Part shown: piece after piece, positions 44,173 to 56,536 of the stretch
Layout: each line of letters opens with the position of its first letter
Numbering within the stretch: position 1 is the first letter of the stretch
Assembly: GCA_964588465.1 (NCBI GenBank)
Contig: CAZPPL010000002.1
Span: 8,929 to 72,928, forward strand
Source: an uncultured Gammaproteobacteria bacterium
GTDB taxonomy: Bacteria > Patescibacteriota > Patescibacteriia > Patescibacteriales > UBA12465
Length of the DNA stretch: 64,000 nt
Reading direction: 5' to 3'
Position numbers and translations under genes: made by a program
The notes under the pieces: model-generated
Database searches by the model: none
Told to the model about the DNA's origin: nothing
Seen by the model: only the letters and a program-made list of their open reading frames with translations

Positions 44173-44201
44173 TTGACAAGCTTTCAGCTTATCTCTATAA
44201 T
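44173..44201 (+). promoter_or_regulatory. Consensus sigma70-type promoter upstream of infA and the ribosomal-protein operon
   Basis: Exact TTGACA (44173-44178), a 17-nt spacer, and exact TATAAT (44196-44201). Confidence 0.6.
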
Positions 44202-44761: not shown

Positions 44762-45157
44762 ATGGCAGTAAGAATTGCGGGAGTAAATATTCCCAATGAT
44801 AAAAGAATTGAAATTGCTCTAACTTATATCTTCGGTATTGGTCGTACGCGATCCAATAAAATTTTAGCTGAGGCTAAAATTAATTTAGATAAACGAGTTA
44901 AAGAGCTTAGTGAGAAGGAAGTAAACACTTTACGGGGGATAATAGAAAAGAAGTATATCATTGAAGGTGATCTGCGTCGGGAAATACAAAGTAATATTAA
45001 ACGTTTAAGAGAAATTAATTGCTATCGGGGTTTGAGACATACTAAGCATTTACCTTCTCGAGGACAACGGACTAAAACTAACAGTCGTACGGTTCGTGGT
45101 AATAAGCGGGTAACCATGGGTAGTGGTAAGAATAAAGCTGGTTTGCAAAAAACTTAA
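44762..45157 (+). CDS. rpsM: 30S ribosomal protein S13
   Basis: [35 protein letters not shown]... The ATG at 44762 is preferred to the track start at 44735. Confidence 0.93.
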
Positions 45158-45197
45158 TTATCAAATAATTAATTCGCCGTTAGAGCGGAATGAACTT

Positions 45198-45803
45198 ATG
45201 TCTGAAGAAGTAAAAGTAAAAAAATCTAATCTCCAAGAAGAGAAAAAAGTAACCGGAGATAAGACTAAAGAAAATACTAAGGAAGAAAAGAATATTAATT
45301 CTAAACCTGAAGAAGAAAAGGTAGTTGAGGATTTTTCTTTTGATTCTAATGTGGAAGAACTCCCAGAAGAGATTAAGCAGAAACTGGAAAAAAATAAAGC
45401 TGCTAGGAGTAAGAAGCGATTAATTAAAAAGAAGAAAAAACGTACTGCTAGAATAGTTAAAGTAGGACGAGCTTATATTCATGCTACTTATAACAATACT
45501 ATGGTTACTATAACCGATAACAATGGTGATGTTATTTCTTGGGCTAGTGCTGGTTTGGCTGGTTTTAGAGGAGCTAAAAAAGCTACTCCCTACGCCGCTC
45601 AGATTATTACTAAGATAGCTACTCAGAAAGCTCGTGAAGAATATGGTTTGGAAGAGATAAGTGTTTTTGTTTCTGGCGTAGGTACTGGTCGCGAGGCTGC
45701 TATTAGAGCTTTAAATGCTAATGGTCTAAATGTATTAGCAGTTAAAGATACCACTCCGATACCCCATAATGGTTGTCGTCCCAAAAAGCCACGTAGAGTT
45801 TAA
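45198..45803 (+). CDS. rpsK: 30S ribosomal protein S11 with about 65-aa K/E-rich N-terminal extension
   Basis: Core sequence GRAYIHATYNNTMVTITDNNGDVISWASAGLAGFRGAKKATPYAAQ...PHNGCRPKKPRRV. The ATG at 45198 avoids overlap with rpsM. Confidence 0.9.
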   Translation: MSEEVKVKKSNLQEEKKVTGDKTKENTKEEKNINSKPEEEKVVEDFSFDSNVEELPEEIKQKLEKNKAARSKKRLIKKKKKRTARIVKVGRAYIHATYNNTMVTITDNNGDVISWASAGLAGFRGAKKATPYAAQIITKIATQKAREEYGLEEISVFVSGVGTGREAAIRALNANGLNVLAVKDTTPIPHNGCRPKKPRRV

Positions 45804-45893: not shown

Positions 45894-46526
45894 ATGGGTA
45901 GGAATATTGATAACAAATGCAAACAATGTCGTCGGATTGGTGAAAAACTATTTTTAAAAGGAGAACGTTGCCATACCCCTAAATGCGCTATGGTAAAACG
46001 TAATTATATTCCTGGTTTTCATGGTCCAAAAGTTCATAAAAAACGTTTGAGTGATTATGGTCTGCAATTAGCTCAAAAACAAAAGGCTAAGAAGTTTTAT
46101 GGTTTAATGGAAAAGCAATTTCGTTTAACCTTTGAGAAAGCCTCTAAGAAATCTGGTGATGCTGGTAAGAACTTTTTACGTGCTCTAGAAATGCGTTTAG
46201 ACAATGTAGTTTTTCGTTCTGGTTGGTCGCCTTCCAGAGCTTTAGCTCGTCAATTAGTTAATCATGGACATTTCACCGTTAATGGTAAAAAAACTGATAT
46301 TCCTTCTTTTGTAGTAAAACCTGGACAAATAATTAAAGTTAAGAAAACTAGTCAGAATTTGTTCTATTTTAGAACTATTCAAGAAAAATTTAAAAAAGTA
46401 GATCGTCCTAGTTGGTTAAATTTTGATTCTAGTGATTCTAGTATTAAGGTTTTACACGAACCACAAGAAACTGATTTGCCTCAGAATTTAGATGTTCAAG
46501 TTATTATAGAATATTATTCAAAATAA
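45894..46526 (+). CDS. rpsD: 30S ribosomal protein S4
   Basis: 210 aa. CKQCRRIGEKLFLKGERC zinc-finger-like N-terminus, YGLQLAQKQKAKKFYG, and an S4 RNA-binding domain RLDNVVFRSGWSPSRALARQLVNHGH. Confidence 0.93.
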   Translation: MGRNIDNKCKQCRRIGEKLFLKGERCHTPKCAMVKRNYIPGFHGPKVHKKRLSDYGLQLAQKQKAKKFYGLMEKQFRLTFEKASKKSGDAGKNFLRALEMRLDNVVFRSGWSPSRALARQLVNHGHFTVNGKKTDIPSFVVKPGQIIKVKKTSQNLFYFRTIQEKFKKVDRPSWLNFDSSDSSIKVLHEPQETDLPQNLDVQVIIEYYSK

Positions 46527-46574: not shown

Positions 46575-47516
46575 ATGCAAAATATCGCCTTAGCTAAAAA
46601 AATTACTTTTAATCCTGGAGCTAATCCTTTAGAGGGAATCATCACCGTGGAACCTTTATTTCCTGGTTATGGTATGACTCTAGGGAATGCTTTACGTCGA
46701 GTTTTATTATCTTCTCTATCTGGAGCGGCTGTGGTTGGTGTAAAAATATCTGGAGCTAGCCATGAATTTATGGTTTTGCCCCGTATAAAAGAAGATGTTT
46801 TAGAATTAATTTTAAATTTAAAGCAATTACGTATTAAGGTGTATACCGAGGAAGAAATTAAATTAAGTTTAAAGATTGGAGGTAAGAAGACTGTCACGGC
46901 TGGCGATATAGCTAAGAATGCTCAAGTAGAAATTAAAAATAAAGATTTAGTTTTAGCCCATATTACTGATTCTAGTGGTAGTTTGGAAATGGAAATTACC
47001 GTTAAAGAAGGTCGGGGATATAAAATGGCTGAAGGTTTTAAAAAAGAGAATAGAGAAATTGGTTATATTGAGATGGATTCACTTTTTTCTCCAGTTACTC
47101 TAGTGAGCATTGAAGTGAGTAATACTCGGGTTGGTAAGATGACTAACTGGGATAAATTAGTTTTACATATAAAAACTGATGGGACTATCAGTGCCGAAGA
47201 AGCCTTTAACGAAGCGGTAAAAATTTTAGTTAATCAATACAAATCTTTCCTACCTCATAGTGACCAAGAAGCTCAATCTGAGCAAGAGACTAAACTTAAA
47301 GAATTATCAGAAGAGGAAGAGGGCAAAACCATAATAGTTGATTTGCCTCAAAGTGATAAAACTTTGATTGATTCAGAGATCGGATTGGAAGAATCACTCG
47401 GCAAGGAGGTCGGTAAAGAAGTAAAAGAGACTAAAAAGGAAATAGAAAAAAAAGAAAAGAAGGAAAAGAAGGAAAAGAAGGAGACCAATAAAAAGCTAGA
47501 AAAAAGTAAAAAATAA
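46575..47516 (+). CDS. rpoA: DNA-directed RNA polymerase alpha subunit, N-terminal domain only, with K/E-rich tail
   Basis: The first ~230 aa carry alpha-NTD motifs (PLFPGYGMTLGNALRRVLLSSLSGAAV, SPVTLVSIEV). The last ~80 aa are an acidic then EKK-repeat low-complexity tail with no HhH alpha-CTD motif. Confidence 0.85.
   Translation: MQNIALAKKITFNPGANPLEGIITVEPLFPGYGMTLGNALRRVLLSSLSGAAVVGVKISGASHEFMVLPRIKEDVLELILNLKQLRIKVYTEEEIKLSLKIGGKKTVTAGDIAKNAQVEIKNKDLVLAHITDSSGSLEMEITVKEGRGYKMAEGFKKENREIGYIEMDSLFSPVTLVSIEVSNTRVGKMTNWDKLVLHIKTDGTISAEEAFNEAVKILVNQYKSFLPHSDQEAQSEQETKLKELSEEEEGKTIIVDLPQSDKTLIDSEIGLEESLGKEVGKEVKETKKEIEKKEKKEKKEKKETNKKLEKSKK
47454..47480 (+). repeat. Tandem 9-nt repeat (GAAAAGAAG x3) inside the rpoA tail
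   Basis: Three perfect consecutive copies read directly from the sequence. They encode EKKEKKEKK. Confidence 0.85.
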
Positions 47517-47564
47517 TTTATCAATCTAAATGCTATTTTTCCATAGCTAGGGAATTAAACCGAT

Positions 47565-47915
47565 ATGCGTCACAGAAATAAAAATAAAATTTTAGATCGT
47601 AAGAAGGGACCGCGGGAACTTATGTTACGTAATTTAGCTTCTAGTATTCTGTTATACGAAAAAGTTAAAACTACCAAAGCTAAGGCTCAGGCGGTTCGTC
47701 CACTAGTAGAACGATTAATCACCGCTTCCAAAGCTGGTGATTTGAGTGCTCGTCGTGGACTCATTAAAGTATTACTTCAAAAAAATGCCGTTAAAAAGGC
47801 TATGGAAGTTTTAGGTAAACGCTATACAGACCGTCCAGGAGGCTATACTAGAATTACTAAATTAGGTTCTAGGGCTGGTGATGGTGCGGAAATAGTACAA
47901 ATTGAATTAGTATAA
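47565..47915 (+). CDS. rplQ: 50S ribosomal protein L17
   Basis: MRHRNKNKILDRKKGPRELMLRNLASSILLYEKVKTTKAKA...GGYTRITKLGSRAGDGAEIVQIELV. Confidence 0.92.
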   Translation: MRHRNKNKILDRKKGPRELMLRNLASSILLYEKVKTTKAKAQAVRPLVERLITASKAGDLSARRGLIKVLLQKNAVKKAMEVLGKRYTDRPGGYTRITKLGSRAGDGAEIVQIELV

Positions 47916-48279: not shown

Positions 48280-48807
48280 ATGGCAGATAAAAAACTTAAG
48301 GACACAAAAGCTAAAGACGAAAAAGCTAAAGACATTTTAATTACTGAAGTGGCGGGATCTTCTCAGGAGAAAGAAAAAGCTTCAACCCCTTTAGCCAATG
48401 GAGATATTATAGATTTTAAGGGTCGCTATATTAAAGCGATTGGTCGTCGCAAACGTTCAGTAGCTAGAGTTCGTTTATTCCAAGGAGGAAAGGGTATTAT
48501 TATGGTTAATGGTAAAAGAACTCAGGAATATTTTTCTGGTGAAGGGGCTAATTTATTAGCTCAGCCTTTGAAAGTTACTGGCCATGCTCGAGATTTTAAT
48601 TTTTCAATTCTAGTATCTGGTGGTGGAAAACAAGGACAAGTGGGAGCGGTTCGTTTAGGTATTAGCAGAACTTTGTTAATCTATGATCCAGAAAGTAAAG
48701 AAGCTTTGAAGGCTAATGGTTTTCTGACTCGCGATCCGCGTCAAGTGGAAAGAAAGAAACCAGGTTTGCGTAAGGCTCGTAAAGCCCCACAATGGAGTAA
48801 ACGGTAA
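48280..48807 (+). CDS. rpsI: 30S ribosomal protein S9 with about 45-aa N-terminal extension
   Basis: Core sequence AIGRRKRSVARVRL..., ending KKPGLRKARKAPQWSKR. It is preceded by the K/D/E-rich MADKKLKDTKAKDEKAKD... Confidence 0.9.
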   Translation: MADKKLKDTKAKDEKAKDILITEVAGSSQEKEKASTPLANGDIIDFKGRYIKAIGRRKRSVARVRLFQGGKGIIMVNGKRTQEYFSGEGANLLAQPLKVTGHARDFNFSILVSGGGKQGQVGAVRLGISRTLLIYDPESKEALKANGFLTRDPRQVERKKPGLRKARKAPQWSKR

Positions 48808-56251: not shown

Positions 56252-56536
56252 TTATTTCTTAGGGATAGCTTTATTCTTGCTAGGTTTCTTAGTTTTAATT
56301 CTTTTAGTTTTAGGAGCCTTAAGTTCACCCGATTTTAAAGCTGGCTTTCGCTTAGTTTTAATTCGTTCTGGTTTATTCATGGTGCGCAGACAAGCAATAC
56401 AAATTTTAAGTTTAACCCCATCAATAGTTCTACTTTGTAGATTGATATTTTGTCTTTTAAGAGTTTTAACTCGGGAATGAGATCTACTAGCCCCCTTAGT
56501 TGATCCTCGTCCACATAAATCACATCTTTTCGACAT
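56252..56536 (-). CDS. rpmB: 50S ribosomal protein L28 with K-rich C-terminal extension
   Basis: MSKRCDLCGRGSTKGASRSHSRVKTLKRQNINLQ matches the L28 N-terminal consensus. About 39 extra K/P-rich residues follow at the C-terminus. Confidence 0.85.
   Translation of the reverse strand: MSKRCDLCGRGSTKGASRSHSRVKTLKRQNINLQSRTIDGVKLKICIACLRTMNKPERIKTKRKPALKSGELKAPKTKRIKTKKPSKNKAIPKK

What the first reader, a model, noticed from the sequence alone, without database searches (positions are those of the whole stretch)
47268..47516. RpoA lacks the alpha C-terminal domain and ends in an acidic then (EKK)n tail
The first ~230 residues are a normal alpha-NTD. The remaining ~80 residues (SDQEAQSEQETKLKELSEEEEG...KKEIEKKEKKEKKEKKETNKKLEKSKK) contain nothing like the helix-hairpin-helix alpha-CTD that binds UP elements and class I activators. 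Only 48 nt separate the stop from rplQ, so a split CTD gene is not hiding there. The tail includes three perfect tandem GAAAAGAAG units (47454-47480), a slippage-prone tract. Loss of alpha-CTD would remove a major route of transcription activation.
Basis: partly seen in the sequence, partly recalled or inferred. Interest (0 to 1): 0.55.

Follow-up and report, generated by a model that had tools for sequence, protein, structure and literature searches.

The report
RNA polymerase alpha with CTD replaced
In this candidate-phyla-radiation bacterium and hundreds of related species, the RNA polymerase alpha subunit has lost its usual DNA- and activator-binding C-terminal domain; a disordered acidic stretch ending in a short lysine-rich tip sits there instead, and a sister clade has a classic AT-hook DNA-binding motif at the same spot.

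Summary
rpoA (46575-47516, 313 aa) has a complete alpha N-terminal domain and an 87-residue tail with no alpha-CTD. Pfam, a local CTD HMM, a profile-profile comparison and AlphaFold2 all agree, and the other reading frames are closed. It is not an artefact. All 120 closest database homologues and all 78 readable rpoA genes from related species (Falkowbacteria-like Patescibacteria) share the layout: NTD, acidic stretch, basic end finishing in KK. The loss is lineage-specific, because other Patescibacteria keep the CTD.

The new point is that this is a replacement, not only a loss. In a sister clade, 107 of 120 alpha subunits carry a canonical AT-hook (KKRGRPKK) 3-6 residues from the C-terminus, where the window has (EKK)4...KSKK.

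My best reading, which is inferred, is that the basic tip is a minimal tethered DNA-binding peptide. It would keep non-specific or AT-preferring upstream DNA contacts, while activator docking on alpha-CTD is gone. Myxococcus CarD (acidic segment plus AT-hooks) is a precedent.

Caveats: DNA binding is untested. A stand-alone CTD elsewhere in the genome could not be excluded. One conserved promoter family shows no UP-like A/T enrichment. I found no prior report in the searchable library.

The parts
46575..47516 (+). rpoA coding sequence (313 aa plus stop)
   Evidence: ORF. TIGR02027 scores 248.6 bits against a cut-off of 227.8. PDB alpha subunits match at E=5e-53.
46575..47252 (+). Alpha N-terminal domain, residues 1-226 (dimerisation and insert domains)
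   Evidence: PF01193 covers residues 26-221 and PF01000 covers 56-172. It aligns to E. coli alpha residues 25-241. AF2 block pLDDT is mostly 80-93.
47253..47423 (+). Net-acidic, predicted-disordered linker, residues 227-283. It includes a lineage-specific insert with hydrophobic residues (about 251-283, GKTIIVDLPQSDKTLIDSEIGLEESLGKEVGKEV).
   Evidence: The first 62 tail residues have net charge -9. AF2 pLDDT is 44-50. hhalign against an alpha-CTD profile gives probability 0.1%.
47424..47513 (+). Lysine-rich basic C-terminal end, residues 284-313 (KETKKEIEKKEKKEKKEKKETNKKLEKSKK). This is the proposed DNA-contacting tip.
   Evidence: The last 25 residues have net charge +6. 114 of 116 clade tails end in KK or KKx. 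A sister clade has KKRGRPKK at this position. AF2 gives a low-confidence helix over 279-309.
47445..47482 (+). 9-nt tandem repeat (GAAAAAAAA, then three perfect GAAAAGAAG at 47454-47480) encoding (EKK)4, residues 291-302
   Evidence: TRF reports period 9, 4.2 copies and 93% matches. The sequence was read directly. EKK run length varies from 0 to 6 across related species.
47517..47564 (+). 48-nt rpoA-rplQ intergenic spacer with no coding capacity for a CTD
   Evidence: rplQ is at 47565..47915.

Best explanation
**Shown.** This Falkowbacteria-like Patescibacteria genome encodes an RNA polymerase alpha subunit with a complete assembly domain (NTD) and no alpha-CTD fold. In place of the CTD is an 87-residue, predicted-disordered tail with a net-acidic proximal part and a lysine-rich end, (EKK)4...KSKK. 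The architecture is conserved across the clade. In a sister clade the same position holds a single canonical AT-hook (KKRGRPKK).

**Inferred.** The basic tip is a minimal DNA-binding peptide held on a flexible acidic tether. Each of the two alpha protomers would provide a low-specificity electrostatic or minor-groove contact with DNA upstream of the -35 element. That would retain the generic upstream-DNA-anchoring role of alpha-CTD. The folded surface that class I activators, UP-element recognition and other CTD partners use would be gone. The acidic stretch would serve as a DNA-repelled spacer, and possibly as an intramolecular damper of the basic tip. Loss of the CTD fits a lineage with tiny genomes and few activators.

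My confidence is about 0.95 that the CTD is truly absent from this polypeptide and that this is a clade trait. It is about 0.5 that the tip binds DNA.
For: **No CTD in the protein**
- Pfam gives no PF03118 hit.
- A local CTD HMM scores 87 positive controls at a median of 69 bits. It gives nothing below E=0.33 in the six-frame translation of the window plus 80 loci.
- hhalign gives probability 0.1%.
- AF2 gives pLDDT 44-56 for residues 231-313.
- The other two reading frames are full of stops.

**A clade-wide trait**
- 120 of 120 close homologues lack PF03118.
- 78 of 78 related species genomes have the acidic-then-basic tail.
- The charge segregation is non-random, and 114 of 116 tails end in KK.
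- The tail is a strong compositional outlier among the window's proteins.

**Support for DNA binding**
- 107 of 120 relatives of P0122 end in KK[KR]RGRPKK, 3-6 residues from the C-terminus, after an acidic linker.
- AT-hook ends also occur in more distant CTD-less alphas: P0130, P0137, P0146 and P0187.
- They also occur in L062 and L077 among the window-clade loci.
- A UPGMA tree needs at least 4 switches between AT-hook and K-rich ends.

**Precedent and context**
- M. xanthus CarD binds RNAP. It has an unfolded C-terminal domain made of an acidic segment followed by AT-hooks.
- Full-length CRP/FNR proteins are absent from the CPR group (PMC12531629).
- From established knowledge, not tested here: an E. 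coli alpha subunit truncated at about residue 235 still assembles core enzyme and supports basal transcription. Alpha-CTD contacts the minor groove of A/T-rich UP elements.
Against: - No DNA-binding experiment or structure exists for these tails.
- The window's own tail has no RGRP core, only E/K repeats. It is nearly charge-balanced overall (net -3), and its last 25 residues carry only +6.
- At the one promoter family I could align (upstream of infA, 65 loci), A/T content upstream of -35 is 0.50-0.73, which is not enriched. The upstream alaS gene often ends 10-35 nt from -35. So no conserved UP-like target is visible.
- Pfam's AT_hook model scores the sister-clade tails below its gathering score (10.7-13.1 bits against 17.4).
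- Lysine-rich tails can also bind RNA or acidic proteins.
- Some CTD-less relatives have purely acidic tails, for example P0128, P0144 and P0167. A basic tip is therefore not universal.
Confidence: 0.55

Rival explanations
1. The tail is a functionless low-complexity remnant. After the CTD was lost under relaxed selection, AT-rich codon bias and replication slippage produced a drifting E/K-rich tail with no role.
For: - The genome is 34.5% GC.
- GAA/AAG 9-nt repeats are present, and EKK copy number varies from 0 to 6.
- Tail length ranges from 21 to 90 residues and the sequence is poorly conserved.
- Ribosomal proteins S11 and S9 in the window also carry charged extensions.
- Some distant CTD-less alphas have other tail types.
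Against: - The charge order is conserved: 109 of 116 tails are significantly segregated and 114 of 116 end in KK.
- All 78 readable rpoA genes among 80 related loci show the acidic-then-basic tail.
- A sister clade keeps an exact KRGRPKK motif in 107 of 120 sequences.
- The tail is a strong outlier among 60 ORFs of the same genome. Codon bias alone does not produce it elsewhere.
Confidence: 0.13
2. The acidic stretch is the working part. It would act as a nucleic-acid mimic, like the disordered acidic C-terminal region of the Firmicutes delta subunit (RpoE) or sigma70 region 1.1. Such a region would modulate promoter selectivity or help RNAP recycling, with the lysines tuning its conformation.
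For: - The proximal tail is net acidic in nearly all members, with a median of -6.
- It is predicted to be disordered.
- Some CTD-less relatives have purely acidic tails.
- The delta subunit's role in RNAP recycling is documented (PMC7749165, listed). The detail of a lysine tract within delta's acidic region is from my own knowledge and was not verified here.
Against: - The most conserved feature is the basic tip, not the acidic sequence.
- An AT-hook is a recognised DNA-binding motif, not a mimic.
- The tether starts at the alpha-NTD, which sits at the upstream face of RNAP, far from the main channel where delta and region 1.1 act. That is structural knowledge and was not tested here.
Confidence: 0.12
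3. The basic tip binds RNA or a protein partner rather than DNA. Candidates are nascent RNA, the ribosome, or an acidic regulator that substitutes for classical activator-CTD contacts.
For: Lysine-rich disordered tails bind polyanions promiscuously. AT-hook-like motifs are also reported to bind RNA, which is my own knowledge and was not tested. rpoA lies within a ribosomal protein operon.
Against: [quoted passage not shown] I saw no conserved partner gene next to rpoA. Synteny is simply rpsD-rpoA-rplQ.
Confidence: 0.1
4. The CTD is not lost but split off. A stand-alone alpha-CTD protein would be encoded elsewhere in the genome and would work in trans or dock onto RNAP.
For: Only about 6-8% of a genome of roughly 0.8-1 Mb is in the window. 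Whole genomes could not be scanned with these tools.
Against: - No CTD-like ORF appears in 64 kb of the window plus 80 loci of about 6.5 kb each, about 541,000 translated residues. The best hit is E=0.33.
- None lies in the 48-nt gap.
- A conserved replacement module at the alpha C-terminus across hundreds of species argues that the old function was substituted rather than relocated.
Confidence: 0.05
5. A sequencing or assembly artefact, such as a frameshift in the A-rich repeat, truncates a normal rpoA.
For: The tail DNA is A-rich and repetitive, which makes it error-prone.
Against: Both alternative frames are full of stops and encode nothing CTD-like. The same architecture appears in independent assemblies from many studies.
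Confidence: 0.01

Closest known systems
Canonical bacterial RNA polymerase alpha subunit (RpoA: NTD, flexible linker, alpha-CTD PF03118)
   Same: The NTD is orthologous: TIGR02027 scores above its cut-off, and the best match to solved alpha subunits is E=5e-53. The gene position is the same (rpsD-rpoA-rplQ). A flexible segment follows the NTD, and a nucleic-acid-binding-type element sits at the far C-terminus.
   Different: There is no helix-hairpin-helix CTD fold. The linker is long and acidic (25-60 residues here, against roughly 15-20 in canonical alpha). The terminal element is a 10-30 residue lysine-rich peptide, or a single AT-hook in the sister clade. It offers no folded surface for activators.
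[quoted passage not shown]
   Same: An RNAP-associated polypeptide ends in an intrinsically disordered acidic segment followed by a basic DNA-binding region. In CarD, AT-hook and other basic disordered versions are interchangeable, and the domain binds AT-rich DNA upstream of a promoter (PMC4374960). The two CPR clades mirror the AT-hook and lysine-rich alternatives.
   Different: CarD is an accessory factor that binds the beta subunit, not a core subunit. It has four AT-hooks rather than one or none. It is found only in myxobacteria and shares no sequence homology with alpha. DNA binding by the alpha tails has not been demonstrated.
Archaeal RpoD and eukaryotic Rpb3/AC40 (alpha-like subunits without a CTD)
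   Same: These assembly-platform subunits consist essentially of the alpha-NTD-like dimerisation and insert domains (PF01193, PF01000) and have no alpha-CTD.
   Different: The window protein is clearly of the bacterial alpha type. Archaeal RpoD models hit only at E of about 1e-4 over residues 190-236. It would form a homodimer encoded in a bacterial ribosomal operon.
Delta subunit (RpoE) of Firmicutes RNA polymerase
   Same: An RNAP-bound protein with a long, disordered, strongly acidic C-terminal region that affects promoter selectivity and recycling (PMC7749165).
   Different: Delta is a separate subunit with a folded N-terminal domain of a different family. Here the most conserved element is the basic tip, not the acidic tract.
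Eukaryotic HMGA proteins and the AT-hook motif (PF02178)
   Same: The sister-clade tails carry the K/R-flanked RGRP core. As in HMGA, an acidic segment lies in the same disordered polypeptide.
   Different: The window's own tail has no RGRP. There is a single motif at the extreme C-terminus. Pfam scores are below threshold. In HMGA the acidic tail follows the hooks, whereas here it precedes the basic end.

Membership tests
Bacterial RNAP alpha subunit (RpoA) | Alpha-NTD: Rpb3/Rpb11-type dimerisation domain plus insert domain | tested here: met
   PF01193 at E=3e-20, PF01000 at E=1e-27. TIGR02027 scores 248.6 bits against a cut-off of 227.8. PDB alpha subunits match at E=5e-53. AF2 is confident over this region.
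Bacterial RNAP alpha subunit (RpoA) | Alpha-CTD helix-hairpin-helix domain (PF03118) after a flexible linker | tested here: not met
   No PF03118 hit at E<=10. The local CTD HMM gives no hit. hhalign probability is 0.1%. AF2 pLDDT is 44-56 with no globular fold.
Bacterial RNAP alpha subunit (RpoA) | Conserved operon position between rpsD and rplQ | tested here: met
   The order is S13, S11, S4, rpoA, L17 in the window. An L17-like start lies 2-115 nt downstream of rpoA in 77 of 78 related loci.
AT-hook motif (PF02178 / HMGA-type) | R-G-R-P core flanked by basic residues | tested here: not met
   The window tail contains no GRP. The core is present in 107 of 120 sister-clade proteins, but Pfam scores there are below the gathering score (10.7-13.1 bits against 17.4).
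AT-hook motif (PF02178 / HMGA-type) | [quoted passage not shown] | not testable with these tools
   This needs EMSA or footprinting. The only indirect test, A/T content upstream of a conserved promoter, showed no enrichment.
CarD-type HMGA-like / H1-like disordered DNA-binding domain | Intrinsically disordered acidic segment followed by a basic region, attached to an RNAP-associated module | tested here: met
   The charge order is -9 then +6, and the same pattern holds in 109 of 116 clade tails. AF2 predicts disorder. The family description comes from PMC4374960. This is a resemblance in architecture only.
CarD-type HMGA-like / H1-like disordered DNA-binding domain | CarD_CdnL_TRCF N-terminal domain and multiple RGRP repeats | tested here: not met
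   The N-terminal part is an alpha-NTD, and Pfam shows no CarD_TRCF domain. There are no RGRP repeats in the window and only one in the sister clade.
Archaeal RpoD / eukaryotic Rpb3 (CTD-less alpha-like subunits) | Best match to RpoD/Rpb3 family models | tested here: not met
   The RpoD and RpoL NCBIfam models hit only at E of about 4e-4, far below their cut-offs. Bacterial rpoA models hit at E=1e-74 or better.
Single alpha-helix (SAH) E/K-rich domain | A long, stable, isolated charged helix | tested here: inconclusive
   AF2 draws a helix over residues 279-309, but at pLDDT of about 53-56. There are no experimental data.

The most novel reading that the evidence does not exclude
A large radiation of Patescibacteria (Falkowbacteria-like lineages and probably several others independently) runs transcription with a core RNA polymerase that has no alpha-CTD. 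In its place evolved a tethered, disordered mini DNA-binding module. This is a single AT-hook in one clade and an oligo-lysine (EKK)n-KKxKK tip in the window's clade. It would take over upstream-DNA anchoring by a eukaryote-like minor-groove or electrostatic mechanism. Classical class I, CTD-dependent activation would therefore not exist in these organisms.
Probability: 0.4. Interest if true: 0.8.

Novelty: new variant of a known kind. Interest (0 to 1): 0.62.

Why it matters
Alpha-CTD is treated as a universal feature of bacterial RNA polymerase. It reads UP elements, is the docking site for class I activators such as CRP, and contacts several elongation and termination factors.

A large natural clade that dispenses with it would show that this layer of regulation is optional in bacteria with minimal genomes. 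It would help explain the sparse set of regulators in CPR bacteria. It would also provide a natural experiment on what upstream DNA contacts minimally require.

The AT-hook and oligo-lysine replacement would be a case of a folded DNA-binding domain being swapped for a disordered, eukaryote-style motif within a core enzyme subunit. It is directly testable with chimeric E. coli alpha subunits.

On the practical side, annotation pipelines and marker sets that expect PF03118 in rpoA will mis-score these genomes.

Tried and rejected
1. **Frameshift hiding a CTD.** The two other frames of 47200-47600 are full of stops. Rejected.
2. **Degenerate CTD in the tail.** NCBIfam NF003519 and TIGR02027, and the B. 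subtilis alignment, run through the tail. The tail columns share no conserved residues. The Pfam, HMM and hhalign tests are all negative. I treat the end-to-end alignment as low-complexity padding.
3. **Stand-alone CTD nearby.** The CTD HMM was run with --max against the six-frame translation of the window plus 80 loci. Nothing scored below E=0.33.
4. **General K/E richness of the proteome.** Rejected, because RpoA is a strong outlier.
5. **UP-like A/T enrichment upstream of the conserved infA-operon promoter in 65 loci.** No signal. This does not support a sequence-specific UP-reader role.
6. **Looking up the window's exact protein to find its contig.** Not on record.
7. **Literature.** Five searches found nothing that reports CTD loss in CPR or an AT-hook on alpha. 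They combined alpha-CTD, alphaCTD or 'alpha C-terminal domain' with Patescibacteria or CPR. A sixth search combined AT-hook with rpoA. The library lacks most subscription-journal papers, so prior description cannot be excluded.
9. **A third large protein search with a CPR CTD to look for stand-alone CTD proteins.** Not run. Only the top 120 hits are listed, and full-length RpoAs would dominate them.

Full report
**1. Observation**

The ORF at 46575..47516 (+) encodes a 313-residue protein that lies between rpsD (45894..46526) and rplQ (47565..47915). TRF reports a 9-nt period with 4.2 copies over 47445-47482.

Pfam finds PF01000 (residues 56-172) and PF01193 (26-221). It finds no alpha-CTD (PF03118) even at E<=10, either in the whole protein or in the isolated tail. 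TIGR02027 (rpoA) scores above its cut-off. Solved alpha subunits match at up to E=5e-53, with conserved residues only as far as about residue 226.

**2. Is the CTD really missing?**

- The other two reading frames of 47200-47600 are closed by many stops.
- That HMM recognises 87 of 150 diverse alpha representatives at a median of 69 bits. It hits none of the 120 close homologues of the window protein.
- It gives nothing below E=0.33 in the six-frame translation of the whole 64-kb window plus 80 related loci.
- A profile of 116 clade tails compared with a profile of 74 linker-plus-CTD regions gives an hhalign probability of 0.1%.
- AlphaFold2, run with a 56-sequence alignment, models the NTD confidently. 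Residues 231-313 get pLDDT 44-56, with only a low-confidence helix over 279-309.

So the tail is neither a CTD nor a degenerate CTD. The end-to-end alignments are padding.

**3. An artefact, or a trait of the lineage?**

All 120 best database hits (60-80% identical, mostly labelled Patescibacteria or Falkowbacteria, 247-316 aa) carry only the two NTD domains. A scan of one genome per GTDB species with two clade-specific peptides found 242 relatives. Of the best 80 loci, 78 yielded a complete rpoA of 264-300 aa, and every one had an acidic stretch followed by a basic end.

In the combined set:
- 101 of 121 proteins have a net-acidic proximal tail and a net-basic last 25 residues.
- 109 of 116 distinct tails are more charge-segregated than 95% of their own shuffles.
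- 114 of 116 end in KK or KKx.
- For the window's own tail the charges are -9 then +6, and 388 of 20000 shuffles reach that segregation.

The tail is not a by-product of proteome composition. Its last 40 residues are 70% K+E, against 13% for the window's proteins overall and 42% for the runner-up among 60 ORFs.

**4. How far does the loss extend?**

I searched with the NTD alone against 1.84 billion cluster representatives. Of the best 150, 87 had a CTD and 63 did not.

Some of the 63 are fragments or obvious frameshift products. Most of the genuine ones end in lysine-rich or AT-hook sequences.

Source labels show that both kinds occur within the Patescibacteria/Parcubacteria group:
- P0131, P0136 and P0143 keep the CTD.
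- P0122 and P0146 lack it.

On a rough NJ tree, the window's clade sits in a subtree of 14 representative clusters that are all CTD-less. Further K-tailed, CTD-less representatives are scattered among CTD-bearing ones.

The loss is therefore lineage-specific within CPR and was probably repeated. The tree is crude and that count is only suggestive.

**5. The key comparative result**

Two of the 78 loci (L062, L077) end in KKKRGRPKK, and several distant CTD-less representatives do the same. A search with P0122, the nearest such representative, returned 120 proteins that all lack PF03118. Of these, 107 end in an acidic linker followed by KK[KR]RGRPKK, placed 3-6 residues from the C-terminus.

This is the canonical AT-hook core. 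Pfam's 13-residue AT_hook model does hit it, but below the gathering score, as expected for a single motif cut off by the C-terminus.

The window's (EKK)4...KSKK end therefore occupies the exact position of an AT-hook in a sister clade. On a UPGMA tree of 221 NTDs, the two end types are strongly clade-structured, with at least four switches against about 71 for shuffled labels.

**6. Mechanism**

*Shown:* the polypeptide has an assembly-competent NTD, no CTD, and a conserved disordered tail that is acidic and then basic.

*Inferred:* the basic tip is a minimal DNA-binding peptide on an acidic tether. The two alpha protomers would give RNAP low-specificity contacts with upstream DNA, AT-preferring in the AT-hook clade. 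The folded surface used by class I activators would be gone.

The closest documented precedent is M. xanthus CarD:
- It is an RNAP-binding protein whose unfolded C-terminal domain is 'an acidic segment followed by ... RGRP or AT-hook repeats'.
- That domain binds the minor groove of an AT-rich site upstream of a promoter.
[quoted passage not shown] 2009 on HMGA/H1-like equivalence).

Full-length CRP/FNR proteins are reported absent from the CPR group (PMC12531629). That fits a lineage without CTD-dependent activation.

Two points are established knowledge that I did not test: E. coli alpha truncated near residue 235 assembles core and supports basal transcription, and alpha-CTD contacts the minor groove of A/T-rich UP elements.

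**7. Evidence against, and limits**

- No binding data exist.
- The window's tail lacks RGRP and is nearly charge-neutral overall.
- A perfect-consensus promoter upstream of infA (window 44173-44201) is conserved in 65 of 69 related loci with infA.
- It shows no A/T enrichment upstream of -35 (0.50-0.73). The alaS coding region often ends 10-35 nt from it.
- So no conserved UP-like target is visible at that promoter.
- Some CTD-less relatives have purely acidic tails.
- A stand-alone CTD elsewhere in the genome could not be excluded, because whole genomes cannot be scanned with these tools.

**8. The repeat**

EKK run length varies from 0 to 6 between species. Only 3 of 79 tails have three or more perfect 9-nt copies. 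That is consistent with occasional in-frame slippage that changes tail length. Because the unit is 9 nt, it cannot switch the protein off by frameshift.

**9. Novelty**

Six literature searches found no report of alpha-CTD loss in CPR or of an AT-hook on alpha. The library omits most subscription-journal papers, so this is absence of evidence only.

I classify the finding as a new variant of a known kind: a bacterial alpha subunit with its C-terminal domain replaced. Interest is moderately high. The loss itself is solid and clade-wide, and the replacement hypothesis is specific and testable.

Noticed in passing
window 44173-44201 (+); the equivalent position in 65 of loci L001-L080: A perfect sigma70 consensus promoter (TTGACA-17-TATAAT) lies upstream of infA-rpmJ-rpsM-rpsK-rpsD-rpoA-rplQ. 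It is conserved nearly 12/12 across 65 related species. The spacer (..CTTATCTC) and the downstream AATTTTATTAAGAATA are also conserved, which suggests a conserved leader or regulatory element beyond the hexamers.
   Followed up: partly
window 45123-45803 (rpsK/S11) and 48280-48807 (rpsI/S9): Both ribosomal proteins have K/E/D-rich N-terminal extensions ahead of the conserved core, about 65-85 aa in S11 and about 45 aa in S9. The true S11 start is uncertain, because the GTG at 45123 overlaps rpsM and MSEEVKV.. begins about 75 nt further in.
   Followed up: no
window 47325-47423 (RpoA residues about 251-283): The window's tail is unusually long (87 aa against a clade median of 50). This is due to an insert with hydrophobic residues (GKTIIVDLPQSDKTLIDSEIGLEESLGKEVGKEV). 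Only the closest homologue, P0001, has something similar (..EDTVDLNLVTEKTTKIKVV..). It could be a short linear motif, and AF2 gives it low confidence.
   Followed up: no
loci L002, L003, L008, L010-L012 and others; P0005: Many species-representative MAGs of this Patescibacteria clade are titled 'uncultured Gammaproteobacteria bacterium' (TPA_asm records). One homologue is named as from a 'Methanomicrobia archaeon'. These are almost certainly taxonomic mislabels in the source records.
   Followed up: no
P0121 (569 aa), P0123 (526 aa), P0140 (664 aa), P0187 (475 aa): Some alpha representatives are much longer than normal. They have either two NTD-matching stretches or an NTD that starts at residue 226-346. 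These could be tandem alpha-alpha fusions, upstream-gene-alpha fusions, or gene-calling errors. P0187 also ends in an AT-hook.
   Followed up: no
window 56252-56536 (-): A 94-aa ORF has the second most basic C-terminus in the window (..KPERIKTKRKPALKSGELKAPKTKRIKTKKPSKNKAIPKK). It may be a small nucleic-acid-binding protein.
   Followed up: no
P0128, P0144, P0167, P0203: A few CTD-less alpha representatives have purely acidic tails with no basic tip. P0203 has a 108-aa tail with an internal repeat (..SSDWLKDDLIEYAEKENI.. / ..SSWLKDELVEYAEQQDV..) that looks like a different, possibly folded, replacement module.
   Followed up: no
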